12,105 nt of DNA from a virus. Taxonomy: Duplodnaviria > Heunggongvirae > Uroviricota > Caudoviricetes. This document shows, piece by piece, positions 1 through 10,761 of this stretch (position 1 is its first letter; each line of letters starts with the position of its first letter). The stretch spans positions 1-12,105 of the IMG/VR virus record IMGVR_UViG_2609459833_000011, one strand, 5' to 3'. The position numbers and the translations under genes were made by a program. The notes beneath the pieces were generated by a model. That model saw only the letters and a program-made list of their open reading frames with translations. It was not told the DNA's origin and ran no database searches.

Positions 1-375
1 TCGCCACGCATGACGGCGCAACTGGCCTGCGATGCCCTGCAGATGGCGCTGTGGCGGCGTAAGAGGCCCCGGAACGTTATCGTTCACACGGACCGTGGAG
101 GCCAGTACTGTTCAGCAGATTATCAGGCGCAACTGAAGCGGCATAATCTGCGTGGAAGTATGAGCGCAAAAGGTTGCTGCTACGATAATGCCTGCGTGGA
201 AAGCTTCTTTCATTCGCTGAAAGTGGAATGTATCCATGGAGAACACTTTATCAGCCGGGAAATAATGCGGGCAACGGTGTTTAATTATATCGAATGTGAT
301 TACAATCGGTGGCGGCGGCACAGTTGGTGTGGCGGCCTCAGTCCGGAACAATTTGAAAACAAGAACCTCGCTTAG
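1..375 (+). CDS. insF: IS3 transposase OrfB (InsF-like), 5'-partial, C-terminal about 124 codons
   Basis: Translation …[55 protein letters not shown]…[12 protein letters not shown] matches the IS3 InsF C-terminus from memory, including the DDE-region E in [11 protein letters not shown]. The frame is open from base 1, so the gene starts upstream of the window. Confidence 0.85.
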
Positions 376-405
376 GCCTGTGTCCATATTACGTGGGTAG
401 GATCA
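1..405 (+). mobile_element. IS3-family insertion sequence, 3' portion including right terminal inverted repeat; element continues left of the window
   Basis: Open frame from base 1 encodes the C-terminal end of an IS3 OrfB transposase. Bases about 367-405 (…aggcctgtgtccatattacgtgggtaggatca) are the reverse complement of the IS3 terminal repeat as I recall it (TGATCCTACCCACGTAATATGGACA…). Boundary at 405 placed from that recalled sequence. Confidence 0.85.
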
Positions 406-976
406 ATCCACCAATTTTTATGCTCTTGGCTGGTGCTTTCTCCATTTTTTTCATCGTTTCTTCGGATGGCTTATCTTGAAGCATTAACACAGATTCTTTT
501 TCATCTGTGAATGTATTAATTAGCCAATTCAAATGCGCCTCAAGCTCCCTTGCTCGAAGCGATGTGGATTGAACGATCATGACATGGTTGTTTAGTACAC
601 CAAAATATAAAATTGAATCTACAAACTCTCTTTTTTTGTCACTACGTTTATCTCCATCAATAATTATATCATTAGACGTGATGGAGTTAATGTCATAAAA
701 TTTAACATTATCACTAAGCTCTAATAGAGACTGGCTTTTGTCTTTTTCAAATAAAACCAGTTGCCCAAAAAGTATAGTTTTGTATGTGTCGCTTTTATTT
801 AAGAAACGATACCCCGAATTTTCATCTGAAGGTGTTATTTTTTCTTGTCTACTAAGTACTTTTTCTGCAACGCCGCCCTCACCTATAATACTAAGTAGTA
901 TGTTTTGTAATGATGATTTGCTGTGTGGGATTACTGCTTTTTTATAATGAACGACTTTTTGTCTGTTATCTTTCAT
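389..976 (-). CDS. Hypothetical protein (195 codons as read), AT-rich, in the rex-equivalent slot downstream of cI; 3' end fused to the IS3 terminal repeat, so probably truncated
   Basis: ATG at 976-974 and a long open frame. The last about 5 codons and the TAA stop (389-391) lie inside the IS3 inverted repeat (389-405), so the native C-terminus is missing. Markedly A/T-rich codon usage compared with cI. No family recognised by eye. Confidence 0.6.
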   Translation of the reverse strand: MKDNRQKVVHYKKAVIPHSKSSLQNILLSIIGEGGVAEKVLSRQEKITPSDENSGYRFLNKSDTYKTILFGQLVLFEKDKSQSLLELSDNVKFYDINSITSNDIIIDGDKRSDKKREFVDSILYFGVLNNHVMIVQSTSLRARELEAHLNWLINTFTDEKESVLMLQDKPSEETMKKMEKAPAKSIKIGGLILPT

Positions 977-4454: not shown

Positions 4455-4545
4455 TTCAAAAGATAGAGTTTATTATTTGAATTTACTATAATTTACTGAT
4501 AAAACAAAAGAATTGTAGAGCAATTTTCATTTGAGGATGAAGTAA
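4455..4545 (+). promoter_or_regulatory. Candidate promoter and RBS region for the cargo operon
   Basis: AT-rich leader with TATAAT at 4487-4492 (no convincing -35 at 17-bp spacing) and SD GAGGA at 4533-4537, 8 nt before ATG 4546. Sequence-only call. Confidence 0.25.
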
Positions 4546-6192
4546 ATGTGTGAAACCTATATTTTTAGGTTCCGTGACCTAGGAAAAAGTGAAGGATTTA
4601 CCATCGAGCAACACAATAACATTGCTCGCCAAGAAGGGAATGTTTGGTGGGGGTGGTGGGCTAAATCTGGTGAGCGTTTCCCATCACTGGAACTAAAAAA
4701 TGCGGCAGAAAAAAATAAACAAATATATTTTTTTGATTCAGGGCGGCTTAAATTTTATACCGCTGTATTAAAGGATACTTGCTCGTCAGCTTTAGGGGAT
4801 ATAAAAAAGCAATCTCCTAAGGATGGTTGCAGAACCCCAGCATATTATAATGAGAATGAGTTGCTGGGATGGTTAAATGTTTCTGAGATTATAGAAATTG
4901 ATGCTTGTGATATCCTCAAAAAATTCACATATATTCCATTGGATGCATTGTTTGCAGGTAATAAAGATTTAGATGAGCAACTTTTCAACAAAATTGTCTT
5001 TTCTTCAGCTGAATTAAAAAAACAAGATAGAACTATTTGGAAGATTAGACCTGCAAATGATAAAGATTTACAGCATGAGTCATTAGCATCTCATTATGTT
5101 CCTTATAATTTCAGTCGGAAGTATAGCCAAAAAAAAGGGGAGTTTATAATTTGGCTTTCGGATATTCATTTTGATGGCGGAAATGGGAAACATGCATTTC
5201 CGACACAAGATAATGATCAGCTAAAATGTTTATCCTCTCGAGTGGTGGAGTTGGCTGGAAAATATAATAATGGGAGTAAATGTGCTGGGTTGGCTATTTC
5301 AGGTGATTTGACGTGGCAGTCACAGAAAGAGGGATTCGAGCAAGCTTTGAATTTTATCAAAGATGTTAGTTCTTCTCTTAGTCTGACAACGGATGATATA
5401 ATTATTTGTCCTGGGAATCACGATGTAGGTCTGGTTTCTAAAGATGAGTACTTTAAAATCGTTGGTAAGCCTGTAACGGATAAACCATGGAAAATTCTGG
5501 CGGAAAACTACCATAGCGAAAGTAAACTTAATTATATAAAATTTTATCGAGATTTTTTTCAAAGGGAACCTGAAGAAAATTTATCACAAGGAAGGAAATT
5601 TTTACTAGGTGGCCATAAAGTTGTTGAAATAGCCGCATTGAACTCATGCGTATTACAACAAGTAAAAGATTCATTTTTGGGCATGGGATTTGTCGGTGAG
5701 CAACAACTCAGTGATGTTGCAAAATCTATGGGATGGATGAATGATAGCGGAGGAGATATACTCAAAAAGAAAGGTGTTATAAGAATTGCTATGCTTCACC
5801 ATCACCTAACTTCTATTAATGAAGTTGAAGATGCCTATCTTGATTCAAGATATAGTGTAACATTAGATGCAGAGCGATTATTACGTTGGGTAGTAAGGCA
5901 TAAAGTTGATTATATTCTGCATGGTCATATGCACAGAAGTAGTTTTATTACAATAACAAAAAAACTATCTCCGTTAGAACCAGTGACGGATTCAAATCCT
6001 GAACATACATTCCAAATTGTTTCTTTGGGAAGTTCAGGAGTTGTTAGTTCGGAATTGCCAAGTCAGGATTGTGCTAACTATGCATGCGTACTGGATTTTT
6101 CTGGCGAAAAGCTAACTTTTAATTTTTTCAAGCTTGATAAACAGAGCGGAGAAAAAGTGGCGGCTACTTATATTGTTGAAGGTTTATTATGA
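4546..6192 (+). CDS. Calcineurin-like metallophosphoesterase (548 aa) with an unassigned N-terminal domain of about 200 aa
   Basis: Complete metallophosphoesterase motif set in order: DxH (WLSDIHFDGGN), GD (LAISGDLT), GNHD (ICPGNHDVG), H (AMLHHH), GHxH (ILHGHMH). N-terminal third has no recognisable motifs except a Trp cluster (GNVWWGWW). Strongly AT-rich codon usage. Confidence 0.85.
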   Translation: MCETYIFRFRDLGKSEGFTIEQHNNIARQEGNVWWGWWAKSGERFPSLELKNAAEKNKQIYFFDSGRLKFYTAVLKDTCSSALGDIKKQSPKDGCRTPAYYNENELLGWLNVSEIIEIDACDILKKFTYIPLDALFAGNKDLDEQLFNKIVFSSAELKKQDRTIWKIRPANDKDLQHESLASHYVPYNFSRKYSQKKGEFIIWLSDIHFDGGNGKHAFPTQDNDQLKCLSSRVVELAGKYNNGSKCAGLAISGDLTWQSQKEGFEQALNFIKDVSSSLSLTTDDIIICPGNHDVGLVSKDEYFKIVGKPVTDKPWKILAENYHSESKLNYIKFYRDFFQREPEENLSQGRKFLLGGHKVVEIAALNSCVLQQVKDSFLGMGFVGEQQLSDVAKSMGWMNDSGGDILKKKGVIRIAMLHHHLTSINEVEDAYLDSRYSVTLDAERLLRWVVRHKVDYILHGHMHRSSFITITKKLSPLEPVTDSNPEHTFQIVSLGSSGVVSSELPSQDCANYACVLDFSGEKLTFNFFKLDKQSGEKVAATYIVEGLL

Positions 6193-7025
6193 AATTACTT
6201 ATTACTGATTTGGATAATACACTGTACGATTGGGTGAGTTTTTACTCCCAGTCATTTAGTGCCATGGCAGAGCAATTATCTAAGGATATTGATGTGCCTT
6301 TGGATACGCTCCTGTCAGAATATAAAACAATTCATCAGAAGTTTGGTAACTCAGAAAAACCATTTGCTACTTTAGAGCTACCATCTGTGATATCTTACTT
6401 TGGAACTAATGATAAAACGATTTTGCAGGAAAAACTTACTAATGTTTTTCAGGCGTTTAGCACAAAACGTAACCAGACATTAATGTTGTATCCTACTGTA
6501 AAAGAAACGCTGGAATTATTGAAGAAACGGGGGGTAAAAATTGTAGGGCATACTGAAGCTTTGGAGTTTAATTCTTTATATCGTCTGAATAAGCTTGGTA
6601 TAATTGATTTTTTTGATCATCTTTATACATTAGAAGATATTCATAATATCCACCCGAATCCCAAAAATGCAAAAAAAATACCTGTGAAGGATGACTTTGT
6701 AATTAGATTGTCCTGCGCTGAGTCAAAGCCAAACCCTAAATTGCTTGAGCACATATGTTCTTTTGAAGGAGTTAGTGTTGAAGATGCGGTATACATTGGC
6801 GATTCTATAACTAAAGATATGTCCATGGCTAAAGCTGTGGGGGTTACTGCTGTTTGGGCTAATTATGGGCGACAGTTTTCACCTGAATTGTGGAAAGTTT
6901 TAGTGAAAATCACACACTGGAAAGATGCAGATGTGGAGAGGGAGGAACAACTTAGAAAAGCATTCTCCAATGTTAGACCTGATTATGTTGTTAATAGTTT
7001 TTCAGAGCTGCTGAATTTGAAATGA
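6189..7025 (+). CDS. HAD-superfamily hydrolase (phosphatase-like), 278 aa
   Basis: HAD motif I at the N-terminus (LITDLDNTLYD), a candidate motif II Thr (VGHTEA), motif III Lys (ESKPNPK) and motif IV GDxxxD (YIGDSITKD). Cap-like insert between motifs I and II. ATG overlaps the upstream stop (ATGA at 6189-6192). Confidence 0.85.
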   Translation: MKLLITDLDNTLYDWVSFYSQSFSAMAEQLSKDIDVPLDTLLSEYKTIHQKFGNSEKPFATLELPSVISYFGTNDKTILQEKLTNVFQAFSTKRNQTLMLYPTVKETLELLKKRGVKIVGHTEALEFNSLYRLNKLGIIDFFDHLYTLEDIHNIHPNPKNAKKIPVKDDFVIRLSCAESKPNPKLLEHICSFEGVSVEDAVYIGDSITKDMSMAKAVGVTAVWANYGRQFSPELWKVLVKITHWKDADVEREEQLRKAFSNVRPDYVVNSFSELLNLK

Positions 7026-7169
7026 GCATGTGCAGGCTCCAAATTTTTAATGATTTGGAGTTCTTTATGGGGTTATTTTTTAATTTGGTGATTTTTCCCA
7101 ATATTGAGATGTTGTTGAACTCGTGAGTTATATTTAACGTATTTGATGTTAATGAAATAATAATATCAC

Positions 7170-7194
7170 AATGCAAGCTCCCTGCATTTTCTTG
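7170..7194 (+). terminator. Weak candidate intrinsic terminator downstream of the cargo operon
   Basis: Stem aatgca (7170-7175), loop agctccc, stem tgcatt (7183-7188), then ttcttg. Short AT-rich stem, so low confidence. Confidence 0.2.
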
Positions 7195-7518
7195 TAGGGG
7201 GCATGCTATTTAGAATAAGCTTATGGTCAAGATTAAATTATGAACTGCTATTTTGATGGGCTGTTTATTATATTGGGGTTGTTTTCTTTTTGAGTTTTTA
7301 TGGTTGAGATGAACGTTTGTTAAATGTTTTAACACCCTTTGTTACAACATTCATCATTTTTACTGTTTGCTAACATGATGTTAGACTGAAATTATTAATT
7401 TGTGAAACTAATCATCTAATTTAACAATACAAAATTGAGATCCAATAATCAAAATGCCATAATAATGTCATCGGAGCCTGAACAACTCCGGTGACTTCTG
7501 CGCTAAACGGGGACGTTT

Positions 7519-7620
7519 ATGCGCACATACAATCCAAACTCTCTTCTCCATTCACAGATGCAGAAATGCACCTGCGTTTTTTTGCATCCAGCGTCTGACC
7601 TCTGTGGAGGTGAAGCGTGA
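7519..7620 (+). CDS. ylcH: Small ORF (33 aa) immediately upstream of and overlapping the ybcN start; ylcH-like by position and size
   Basis: ATG 7519 preceded by GGGA (7510-7513); in-frame stop TAA at 7504 bounds it upstream. Its stop TGA 7618-7620 overlaps the ybcN GTG 7617 (GTGA). Product [33 protein letters not shown]. Synteny recalled from K-12 DLP12, not verified. Confidence 0.4.
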
Positions 7621-9678: not shown

Positions 9679-10761
9679 TTAGAACTGGTAAACCATACCT
9701 ACAGCAACGATATCATCGGTAGCAACGCCAGATGCTTTCGTGAAATCGCTCTTATCAATCAGGTTGATTTTGTAGTCAACAAAAGTGGACATATTTTTGT
9801 TGAAGTAATAGGTTGCACCTACATCAACATATTCAACCAGGTCCTGATCACCCCAAACACCCAAGTCTTTTCCTTTAGAATGCAGGTAAGCAACGGATGG
9901 ACGCAGGCCGAAGTCGAACTGATATTGTGCAACAGCTTCGAAGTTTTGTGCTTTGTTGGCAATATGGTTATTACCAAAAACAGTCATGTTCTGGGTTTCA
10001 GAATAGGTGGTGGCCAGATAGATGTTGTTCGCATCATATTTCAGACCAGCTGCCCATACTTCAGCATTTTGACCAGAAGCATTCAGACCGTTGTTACCGT
10101 AGATAACCTGATTATTAGTGCGATCAGATTTAGCATAGGTTGCACCCACGCCGAATCCTTCATACTCATAAGTAGTTGAGAAACCGAAACCATCGCCATT
10201 AGCTTCAGTTACTTCATTTCGGTCATTTTTGCCCTGATACTGAGCTGCAAAGTTCAGGCCATCAACCAGACCAAAGAAGTCGTTGTTACGATAAGTTGCA
10301 ACACCTGTGGTGCGACCAGTCATGAATACATCTGTTTGGGTCCAGGTATCGCCACCGAATTCTGGCAGAACGTCAGTCCACGCACCGATGTCGTATGCTA
10401 CACCGTAGTTACGGCCGTAATCGATTGAGCCGTAGTCACCGAATTTCAGGCCTGCAAATGCAAGACGGGTTTTGTCTTTGGAGGAACCTTGAGATTCAGC
10501 GCGGTTGCCTTTGAATTCATATTCCCACTGACCGAAACCAGTCAGTTGATCGTTGATTTGGGTTTCACCTTTGAAGCCAAGACGGGCATAAGTAGTATCA
10601 CCATCATCTGCATCATTAGAGGAGAAGTAGTGCTTAGCATTAACTTTCCCGTACAGATCCAGCTTGTTACTGTCTTTATTATAAATTTCAGCTGCCTGAG
10701 CAGACATCGCCATCAGTACTGATGCAGCTACAGCAGAAATTGCCACTGTTAATTTTTTCAT
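9679..10761 (-). CDS. nmpC: General diffusion porin of the OmpC/OmpF/PhoE/NmpC family, prophage-borne (moron)
   Basis: 360-aa product with signal peptide [23 protein letters not shown]|AEIYNKD and hallmark porin segments (…[10 protein letters not shown]…[14 protein letters not shown]…[23 protein letters not shown]…) ending in the C-terminal Phe (MVYQF). Opposite strand to flanking phage genes. Symbol assigned by DLP12 synteny, not exact identity. Confidence 0.85.

What the first reader, a model, noticed from the sequence alone, without database searches (positions are those of the whole stretch)
4546..5160. Unassigned N-terminal domain (about 200 aa) with a Trp cluster fused to the metallophosphoesterase
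Residues 1 to about 200 of the 548-aa protein precede the first catalytic motif (DIHFD) and carry no motif I recognise; they include the unusual aromatic cluster GNVWWGWWAKSGERF. Sensor or ligand-binding domains fused N-terminal to an effector hydrolase are typical of immune and signalling proteins, so this may be the specificity determinant.
Basis: partly seen in the sequence, partly recalled or inferred. Interest (0 to 1): 0.6.

Follow-up and report, generated by a model that had tools for sequence, protein, structure and literature searches.

The report
Known m6dAMP sensor domain of MisA
The "unassigned" N-terminal domain is the PUA-like sensor of MisA, from the recently described Metis anti-phage system; published work indicates it binds the methylated nucleotide m6dAMP released when a phage shreds the host chromosome and switches on the attached NAD+-destroying enzyme, so the finding is real but already explained.

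Summary
ORF 4546-6192 encodes a 548-aa protein. Residues 1-~200 precede the first metallophosphoesterase motif (D206-I-H), and residues 31-45 read GNVWWGWWAKSGERF.

The domain is not unassigned. It matches Pfam PF24405 "Pua-like" (E 7e-43). The whole protein matches NCBIfam NF053862 "anti-phage phosphoesterase" above its cut-off, and RefSeq annotates a 99.9%-identical locus as misA/misB.

This is type I Metis (Osterman et al., bioRxiv 2025; also DS-9 of DefensePredictor, Science 2026). Over the 399 nt available for comparison, the window gene differs at 2 nt from the E. coli 402837 MisA. That protein was purified and cleaves NAD+ to NMN + AMP only when m6dAMP is present.

AlphaFold3 placed m6dAMP in the PUA-like pocket. 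Mutating an Arg of the RFRD motif, or the fourth Trp of WWGWW (window W38), abolished defence. The downstream HAD gene (MisB) dephosphorylates basal m6dAMP.

My own work agrees. WWGWW is nearly invariant in 119 homologues, the AF2 model (pLDDT 85) is closest to YTH m6A-reader domains, and 57 of 80 genomic loci carry the PUA-phosphoesterase fusion next to a HAD gene.

Novelty: already known.

The parts
4533..4537 (+). Shine-Dalgarno-like GAGGA, 8 nt upstream of the misA ATG
   Evidence: Read directly from the sequence. An in-frame TAA at 4543-4545 closes the frame upstream.
4546..6192 (+). misA: 548-aa anti-phage phosphoesterase of type I Metis (DS-9A family)
   Evidence: NCBIfam NF053862 scores 529 bits against a cut-off of 420. 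RefSeq annotates the 99.9%-identical locus as misA. The protein differs from WP_148886286.1 at 2 of 548 residues.
4558..5079 (+). PUA-like sensor domain (residues 5-178), the subject of the finding; predicted m6dAMP-binding module
4567..4578 (+). R8-F9-R10-D11 motif; one of the two Arg residues corresponds to the 'R9E' pocket mutant that abolishes defence
   Evidence: R8 is kept in 119 of 120 rows, R10 in 119 and D11 in 119. Mutant and primers are, mapped onto the window.
4645..4659 (+). W34-W35-G36-W37-W38 Trp cluster; W38 corresponds to the W39A loss-of-defence mutant of 401675 MisA
   Evidence: Near-invariant in 119 homologues and in alignments A1 and A2. W39A is; the alignment is.
5080..5145 (+). 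Poorly conserved, low-confidence linker (residues 179-200) between sensor and enzyme
   Evidence: Mean pLDDT is about 49-53 for residues 181-200. These columns are gap-rich in homologues.
5146..6189 (+). Calcineurin-like metallophosphoesterase domain (NAD+ diphosphatase effector). Motifs: D206-x-H208, G253-D254, G290-N291-H292-D293, G460-H461-x-H463
   Evidence: Pfam PF00149 covers residues 201-464. D206 and N291 correspond to the DS-9A D207A and N292A loss-of-defence mutants.
6189..7025 (+). misB: 278-aa HAD phosphatase (m6dAMP to m6dA), overlapping misA by ATGA; catalytic D7 and D9
   Evidence: PADLOC PDLC03008 'Hydrolase' E 4e-57. Pfam HAD_2 and Hydrolase. Identical to RefSeq misB. Function.
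7026..7616 (.). Low-GC (34.7%) non-coding tail of the inserted cassette, with a terminator-like hairpin at 7177-7202
   Evidence: The cassette is 36% GC; the flanking phage genes are 49-51% GC.

Best explanation
Residues ~5-178 of the 548-aa protein are the PUA-like ligand-sensing domain of MisA, the sensor-effector protein of the type I Metis abortive-infection system. Here the system is carried as a low-GC two-gene moron (misA-misB) between the replication gene P and ninB of a lambdoid prophage.

Proposed mechanism:
1. A lytic phage degrades the Dam-methylated host chromosome to mononucleotides, and N6-methyl-dAMP (m6dAMP) accumulates.
2. m6dAMP binds the pocket of the PUA-like domain. The pocket is lined by the RFRD motif and the WWGWW Trp cluster.
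3. Binding activates the C-terminal calcineurin-like metallophosphatase, which cleaves NAD+ into NMN + AMP. NAD+ is depleted and phage replication stops.
4. MisB, the downstream HAD phosphatase, removes basal m6dAMP (m6dAMP to m6dA), so MisA stays off in uninfected cells.

Shown experimentally by others, on a near-identical protein: m6dAMP-specific activation, the NMN + AMP products, dependence on Dam and on phage denA, loss of defence in pocket and catalytic mutants, and MisB activity.

Shown here: identity of the window genes with that system, domain assignment, start codon, conservation of the pocket residues, PUA/YTH-like fold, and the conserved misA-misB gene pair.

Inferred: that the ligand physically sits among the Trp residues (AF3 model plus mutants only), and the allosteric route from sensor to active site.
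For: Domain and family:
- Pfam PF24405 'Pua-like', residues 5-178, E 7e-43, followed by Metallophos at 201-464.
- NCBIfam equivalog NF053862 'anti-phage phosphoesterase', 529 bits against a cut-off of 420.
- A RefSeq locus 99.9% identical is annotated misA/misB, in the same position between P and ybcN/ninB. The proteins differ at 2 of 548 (MisA) and 0 of 278 (MisB) residues.

Link to the tested proteins:
- The first 399 nt differ at 2 positions (one synonymous, one R95C) from the synthesized E. coli 402837 Metis gene, which is the MisA that was purified.
- Metis preprint: PUA-like N-domain, Dam dependence, denA escapers, m6dAMP-only activation in vitro, NAD+ to NMN + AMP, AF3 ipTM 0.97 for m6dAMP in the PUA pocket, loss of defence in the R9E and W39A mutants, and MisB dephosphorylating m6dAMP.
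- DefensePredictor DS-9 (the E308 allele) defends, and D207A and N292A abolish defence.

My own analyses:
- Residues R8, F9, R10, D11, H23, W34, W35, G36, W37, W38, E43, P98, Y100, Y101 and W109 are ≥90% conserved across 119 homologues.
- 57 of 80 species-representative loci have the PUA-MPE fusion with an adjacent MisB-like HAD gene.
Against: - The mechanism rests on one preprint, and no peer-reviewed version is in the searched library.
- Ligand placement in the pocket is an AF3 prediction supported by two in-vivo mutants. There is no solved structure or direct binding assay, and no PDB relative by sequence.
- Only the first ~400 nt of the tested 402837 sequence could be read, so full-length identity to the purified protein is inferred through the RefSeq misA protein.
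- The window allele carries C95 (R in 402837 and RefSeq) and D143 (N in RefSeq). Both columns are variable in the family, but neither substitution has been tested.
Confidence: 0.92

Rival explanations
1. The PUA-like domain reads a modified base within polymeric nucleic acid (phage or host DNA/RNA), as YTH, EVE, SRA and McrB-N domains do. It would target or activate the hydrolase on modified polynucleotides rather than sensing a free mononucleotide.
For: The closest structural relatives are polymer readers: YTH with m6A RNA, McrB-N and THYN1 with m5C DNA. The first lead in the Metis preprint was the known role of PUA domains in recognising modified DNA and RNA bases.
Against: Purified MisA is activated in vitro by free m6dAMP alone. 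Adding m6dAMP to the medium intoxicates Metis cells without phage. The free base, the nucleoside and the ribonucleotide are all inactive, so the 5'-phosphate and deoxyribose of a mononucleotide are required. MisB, a mononucleotide phosphatase, controls toxicity.
Confidence: 0.03
2. The window allele (C95, D143) is a decayed or re-specified copy. The domain is the MisA sensor by descent, but here it no longer responds to m6dAMP, or it responds to a different modified nucleotide.
For: There are two amino-acid differences from the RefSeq misA protein, one of which (R95C) also separates the window from the tested 402837 allele. The preprint anticipates Metis variants that sense other modifications.
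Against: Both positions lie in variable columns of the family alignment. Every conserved pocket and catalytic residue is intact, and the ORF and the misB overlap are intact. The identical cassette is present in at least 8 further complete E. coli genomes.
Confidence: 0.04
3. The region is not a functional sensor: it is an untranslated leader with translation starting internally, or a housekeeping or structural domain unrelated to specificity.
For: None found.
Against: There is a GAGGA 8 nt upstream of the ATG, and no Met before residue 380. Conservation starts at residue 4. The match to PF24405 is full-length. Pocket mutants in a homologue abolish defence.
Confidence: 0.01

Closest known systems
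MisA of type I Metis (E. coli 402837, 401675 and E308; Osterman et al., bioRxiv 10.1101/2025.11.05.686725), the same system as DS-9A of DefensePredictor (PMC13092281)
   Same: Same architecture (PUA-like domain plus calcineurin-like metallophosphatase) and the same overlapping downstream HAD gene. The same pocket residues (RFRD, WWGWW) and catalytic residues are present. The window is near-identical to the 402837 allele (2 nt in 399) and roughly 79% identical in DNA to the E308/DS-9 allele.
   Different: Only C95 (R in 402837 and RefSeq) and D143 (N in RefSeq). The window copy sits in a lambdoid prophage nin region; the papers expressed the operons from plasmids.
YTH domains (YTHDC1, YTHDC2, Mmi1, CPSF30-YTH), eukaryotic m6A RNA readers of the PUA-like superfamily
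   Different: Sequence identity is only 10-14%, and there is no Pfam YTH hit. YTH domains bind m6A within RNA, whereas MisA responds to the free deoxy-mononucleotide and acts as an allosteric switch for a fused enzyme.
EVE, ASCH, SRA and McrB-N modified-base readers in type IV restriction and other defence proteins
   Different: Those domains flip a modified base out of phage DNA to direct a nuclease against non-self. MisA senses a self-derived breakdown product and destroys NAD+, not DNA.
MisC-MisB (type II Metis; the Rst Hydrolase-3TM system of Rousset et al.)
   Same: Shares the MisB HAD phosphatase: the window MisB matches the PADLOC 'Hydrolase' model at 4e-57. It also shares the m6dAMP trigger.
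   Different: The sensor-effector is a three-helix membrane protein with no PUA-like domain and no NADase.
DS-8 (metallophosphatase plus NACHT) and SIR2/TIR/SEFIR NAD+-depleting effectors
   Same: DS-8 has a homologous metallophosphatase domain (NF053861 hit, E 1.5e-14). SIR2, TIR and SEFIR effectors share the outcome of NAD+ depletion.
   Different: DS-8 uses a NACHT sensor rather than a PUA-like one. SIR2 and TIR cleave the nicotinamide-ribose bond, whereas MisA cleaves the pyrophosphate bond to give NMN + AMP.

Membership tests
MisA / type I Metis (NCBIfam NF053862 DS9_1_antiphage) | Full-length match to the curated equivalog model above its cut-off | tested here: met
   529 bits against a cut-off of 420, covering residues 8-508.
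MisA / type I Metis | N-terminal PUA-like domain (Pfam PF24405) | tested here: met
   Residues 5-178 match profile positions 1-176 of 176, 146.9 bits against a cut-off of 27.
MisA / type I Metis | Pocket residues whose mutation abolishes defence (an Arg of RFRD; the fourth Trp of WWGWW) are present | tested here: met
   Window R8/R10 and W38 align to 401675 R9/R11 and W39. They are ≥97% conserved in the family.
MisA / type I Metis | C-terminal calcineurin-like metallophosphatase with intact catalytic motifs | tested here: met
   PF00149 covers residues 201-464. D206/H208, D254, N291/H292 and H461/H463 are present. D206 and N291 correspond to the DS-9A mutants D207A and N292A.
MisA / type I Metis | Operon partner MisB (HAD phosphatase with the DxD catalytic motif) immediately downstream | tested here: met
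   ORF 6189-7025 overlaps misA by ATGA. PADLOC 'Hydrolase' E 4e-57; N-terminus MKLLITDLDNT with D7 and D9. 57 of 80 related loci show the same pairing.
MisA / type I Metis | m6dAMP-dependent hydrolysis of NAD+ to NMN + AMP; defence dependent on Dam and on phage host-DNA degradation | not testable with these tools
   Published for the near-identical 402837 protein and for the 401675 system. Not measured for this allele.
PUA-like superfamily (YTH, EVE, ASCH, SRA, PUA) | PUA-like beta-barrel fold detectable by structure comparison | tested here: met
YTH domain family (Pfam YTH) | Sequence-profile match to the YTH family | tested here: not met
   No YTH hit in the Pfam scan at E ≤ 1. No PDB relative with the family profile. 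It is a separate family within the same fold class.

The most novel reading that the evidence does not exclude
The domain in this window does what the Metis preprint says, but the PF24405 module may be a portable sensor of modified mononucleotides that is reused well beyond MisA.

I found it in several other contexts:
- A stand-alone ~170-aa protein in three-gene operons: a HemK/Eco57I-like methyltransferase, the PUA-like protein and a MisB-like HAD, with no recognisable effector (8 loci).
- Fused to the methyltransferase (P0111).
- Fused directly to a HAD domain (P0115).
- Fused to an HTH_3 DNA-binding domain, next to a HAD gene (P0099 / L005).
- With a DUF4062 insert ahead of the phosphoesterase (P0009).

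These could be further Metis types, with trans-acting or transcriptional outputs or other ligands. They could also be a non-immune pathway that sanitises methylated nucleotides. The preprint's putative 'type III' (a MisA homologue plus a methylase) may already cover part of this.
Probability: 0.3. Interest if true: 0.5.

Novelty: already known. Interest (0 to 1): 0.15.

Why it matters
Metis is notable biology. It detects infection through a self-derived breakdown product (m6dAMP, which can only arise when methylated DNA is degraded), not through a phage molecule, and it depletes NAD+ through an unusual pyrophosphate cleavage.

For this scan, the value is in classification. The flagged domain is the ligand sensor of that system, and the window carries an intact prophage-borne copy nearly identical to the allele used for the biochemistry. 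Databases already name the genes misA and misB.

The finding shows that the first-stage reader can pick out a real sensor domain from raw sequence. It adds no new biology about the domain itself. The remaining open questions are structural: there is no experimental structure of the pocket or of the activation mechanism. The other open point is the set of non-MisA contexts of the PUA-like module noted in passing.

Tried and rejected
- Word-indexed homologue search with the 200-aa domain alone found only one partial Salmonella protein. The exhaustive HMMER search and a profile query were needed. The word-indexed tool returned only short proteins (350 aa or less), so architectures came from the HMMER representatives and the genome loci instead.
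- PADLOC (2023) has no model for the N-domain or for MisA as such. It gives only weak metallophosphatase hits (PDC-S60, 'Effector') and the MisB 'Hydrolase' model. PHROGs gives only generic phosphoesterase and HAD hits.
- Sequence search of the PDB found only Lmo2642 for the phosphoesterase half (E 2e-4), and nothing for the N-domain, even with a 72-sequence profile.
- The DefensePredictor main text and the supplements held do not mention a PUA domain for DS-9. That paper alone would have left the domain unexplained.
- tblastn of the domain against 50,697 phage records gave one weak partial hit. The domain is not a common annotated phage gene.
- The promoter and terminator scans gave no more sites than shuffled sequence, so I make no claim about the cassette's own promoter.
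- I considered an internal start or leader, and rejected it.
- I did not use the second structure job on the full-length protein. The tool returns no coordinates, so pocket geometry and domain contacts could not have been inspected.

Full report
**What is in the window.** The window is part of a lambdoid prophage: an IS3 transposase fragment, a cI-like repressor, cro/cII-like genes, replication genes O and P, then NinB, NinE, RusA, a Q antiterminator, an OmpC-like porin, a holin and a lysozyme. Between P (ends 4422) and ninB (starts 7617) lies a two-gene insert of 36% GC; the flanking phage genes are 49-51% GC. The first gene is ORF 4546-6192 (548 aa). The second is ORF 6189-7025 (278 aa), and the two overlap by ATGA.

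**The observation.**
- Residues 31-45 read GNVWWGWWAKSGERF.
- The first metallophosphoesterase motif begins at D206 (nt 5161), directly after the finding's end coordinate.
- The start codon is secure. GAGGA lies 8 nt upstream, an in-frame TAA abuts the ATG, and the next Met is residue 380. Family conservation starts at residue 4.

**Domain identity.** The region is not unassigned.
- Residues 5-178 are a full-length match to Pfam PF24405 'Pua-like' (E 7e-43, 146.9 bits against a cut-off of 27). PF00149 Metallophos follows at residues 201-464.
- The whole protein passes the curated cut-off of NCBIfam NF053862, 'DS9_1_antiphage, anti-phage phosphoesterase' (529 against 420 bits).
- The downstream protein is a HAD phosphatase. 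It matches the PADLOC 'Hydrolase' model over its full length (E 4e-57). DefensePredictor's table labels that model Rst_Hydrolase-Tm.

**Link to published systems.** DS-9 is a two-gene system validated in DefensePredictor (PMC13092281). D207A and N292A in the metallophosphatase abolish defence, but that paper leaves the target unknown and does not discuss the N-terminal domain.

A megablast against complete E. coli genomes found the cassette in 35 of 5,426 genomes: 12 records at 99% identity or more, and 25 at about 79%. One recent RefSeq record names the genes misA ('anti-phage phosphoesterase') and misB, in the same position between P and ybcN/ninB. The window proteins differ from those at 2 of 548 residues (C95R, D143N) and 0 of 278 residues.

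- Metis protects against T2, T4, T5, T6 and T7 by abortive infection.
- NAD+ is depleted during infection.
- T4 and T6 escapers carry mutations in denA, the gene for the first step of host-DNA degradation.
- Defence requires host Dam.
- Purified MisA hydrolyses NAD+ to NMN + AMP only with m6dAMP. It does not respond to dAMP, m6AMP, m6-deoxyadenosine or m6-adenine.
- AlphaFold3 places m6dAMP in the PUA-like pocket (ipTM 0.97), and pocket mutations abolish defence.
- MisB dephosphorylates m6dAMP to m6dA, and removes basal ligand so that MisA is not toxic.

**How close the window is to the tested proteins.** The preprint's supplementary table gives the start of each synthesized gene.
- The 399 nt shown for E. 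coli 402837 Metis differ from window 4546-4944 at two positions. One is synonymous; the other gives R95C. The 402837 MisA is the protein that was purified for the biochemistry.
- The E308 allele is the DS-9 sequence.
- The pocket mutants were made in the more distant 401675 allele.
- 'R9E' maps to the RFRD motif. By name it is window R8. The mutagenic primers, however, replace the codon corresponding to window R10.

**Independent checks made here.**
- Conservation: an exhaustive HMMER search with residues 1-200 found 406 clusters at E ≤ 0.001. In 119 homologues that cover the domain, the following are ≥90% conserved: R8, F9, R10, D11, L12, T19, H23, W34, W35, G36, W37, W38, E43, P98, Y100, Y101, W109 and T163. 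The Trp cluster is therefore the family signature and not a chance run.
- Fold: an AF2 model of residues 1-200, built with a 72-sequence alignment, has pLDDT 84.7 and pTM 0.82. The low-confidence part is the linker after about residue 180.
- Solved structures: no PDB sequence matches the family profile. The fold relationship is remote, and no experimental structure of this domain exists.

**Distribution and context.** The pattern WWGWWx[KR]xxE plus tblastn found 158 relatives among 185,579 species-representative genomes. They span many phyla. Among the 80 loci fetched:

| Arrangement | Loci |
|---|---|
| PUA-phosphoesterase fusion with an adjacent MisB-like HAD gene | 57 |
| Fusion with no HAD gene within 1.2 kb | 11 |
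| Fusion with no HAD gene, contig ends within 900 nt downstream | 3 |
| Methyltransferase + stand-alone PUA + HAD triad | 5 |
| PUA and phosphoesterase as separate adjacent ORFs, plus HAD | 2 |
| Partial | 2 |

Other architectures also occur: PUA-HAD, methyltransferase-PUA, PUA-DUF4062-phosphoesterase and PUA-HTH.

**Verdict.** The domain is the already described PUA-like m6dAMP sensor of MisA (type I Metis, also called DS-9), and the window carries an intact allele nearly identical to the one characterised biochemically.

Remaining uncertainty:
- The mechanism rests on a single preprint.
- Ligand placement rests on an AF3 model and two in-vivo mutants.
- The C95 and D143 substitutions are untested, although both lie in variable columns.

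Novelty: already known. Interest: low for the finding itself. The non-MisA contexts of the PUA-like module are the only part that might go beyond the literature.

Noticed in passing
L002:3737-6364, L003:3591-6407, L004, L057, L067, L076, L081, L084 (also P0111): Three-gene operons: a ~425-450-aa HemK/Eco57I-like methyltransferase (also matching PADLOC 'mad2'), a stand-alone ~170-aa PF24405 PUA-like protein that keeps the invariant pocket residues, and a MisB-like HAD (PADLOC Hydrolase 3e-31). There is no metallophosphatase and no other recognisable effector. P0111 fuses the methyltransferase to the PUA-like domain. This may overlap the preprint's putative 'type III Metis', but no effector is evident.
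   Followed up: partly
L005:1422-2363 (P0099), with a divergent HAD gene at L005:144-977; P0115; P0009: Other fusions of the PUA-like module. PUA plus HTH_3 (313 aa) lies next to a HAD gene and could be a ligand-responsive regulator. PUA plus a HAD domain occurs in one 422-aa protein. PUA plus DUF4062 plus metallophosphatase occurs in a 725-aa protein.
   Followed up: partly
L059, L060, L063, L065, L068, L070, L071, L078, L079, L082, L085: Eleven PUA-metallophosphatase genes, many from Myxococcota, have no MisB-like HAD gene within 1.2 kb. Several are longer than MisA (up to about 1,130 aa by my ORF calls), with N-terminal extensions. How they avoid self-toxicity without MisB is unclear.
   Followed up: no
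window 389-976 (-) and 10-375 (+): A low-GC (about 33%) ORF of 195 aa downstream of the cI-like repressor matches only positions 4-199 of the 344-position phrog_3482 (unknown function). It abuts an IS3-family transposase fragment. It looks like a moron in the rexAB-equivalent position that an IS insertion has truncated. PADLOC gives no hit.
   Followed up: partly
window 7026-7616: About 590 bp of low-GC (34.7%) apparently non-coding DNA follows misB and belongs to the inserted cassette. It holds a terminator-like hairpin at 7177-7202. At the equivalent spot, RefSeq annotates only a 33-aa hypothetical protein.
   Followed up: partly
window 4537-4545: A two-codon mini-ORF (ATG AAG TAA) sits between the Shine-Dalgarno sequence and the misA ATG, and its stop codon abuts the start. 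It is probably incidental. It is also the in-frame stop that fixes the misA start.
   Followed up: no
Metis preprint, supplementary tables 2 and 3: The MisA pocket mutant is named R9E. Primers IO684 and IO685, however, replace the AGG codon at position 11 of the 401675 gene, which is the second Arg of RFRD (window R10). Either the residue number or the primer entry is off by two.
   Followed up: yes
window 9679-10761 (-): An OmpC-like porin gene (360 aa) lies between the Q antiterminator and the lysis genes. RefSeq annotates it as 'porin OmpC' in the equivalent prophage. It is a typical lambdoid cargo gene and is unrelated to the finding.
   Followed up: no
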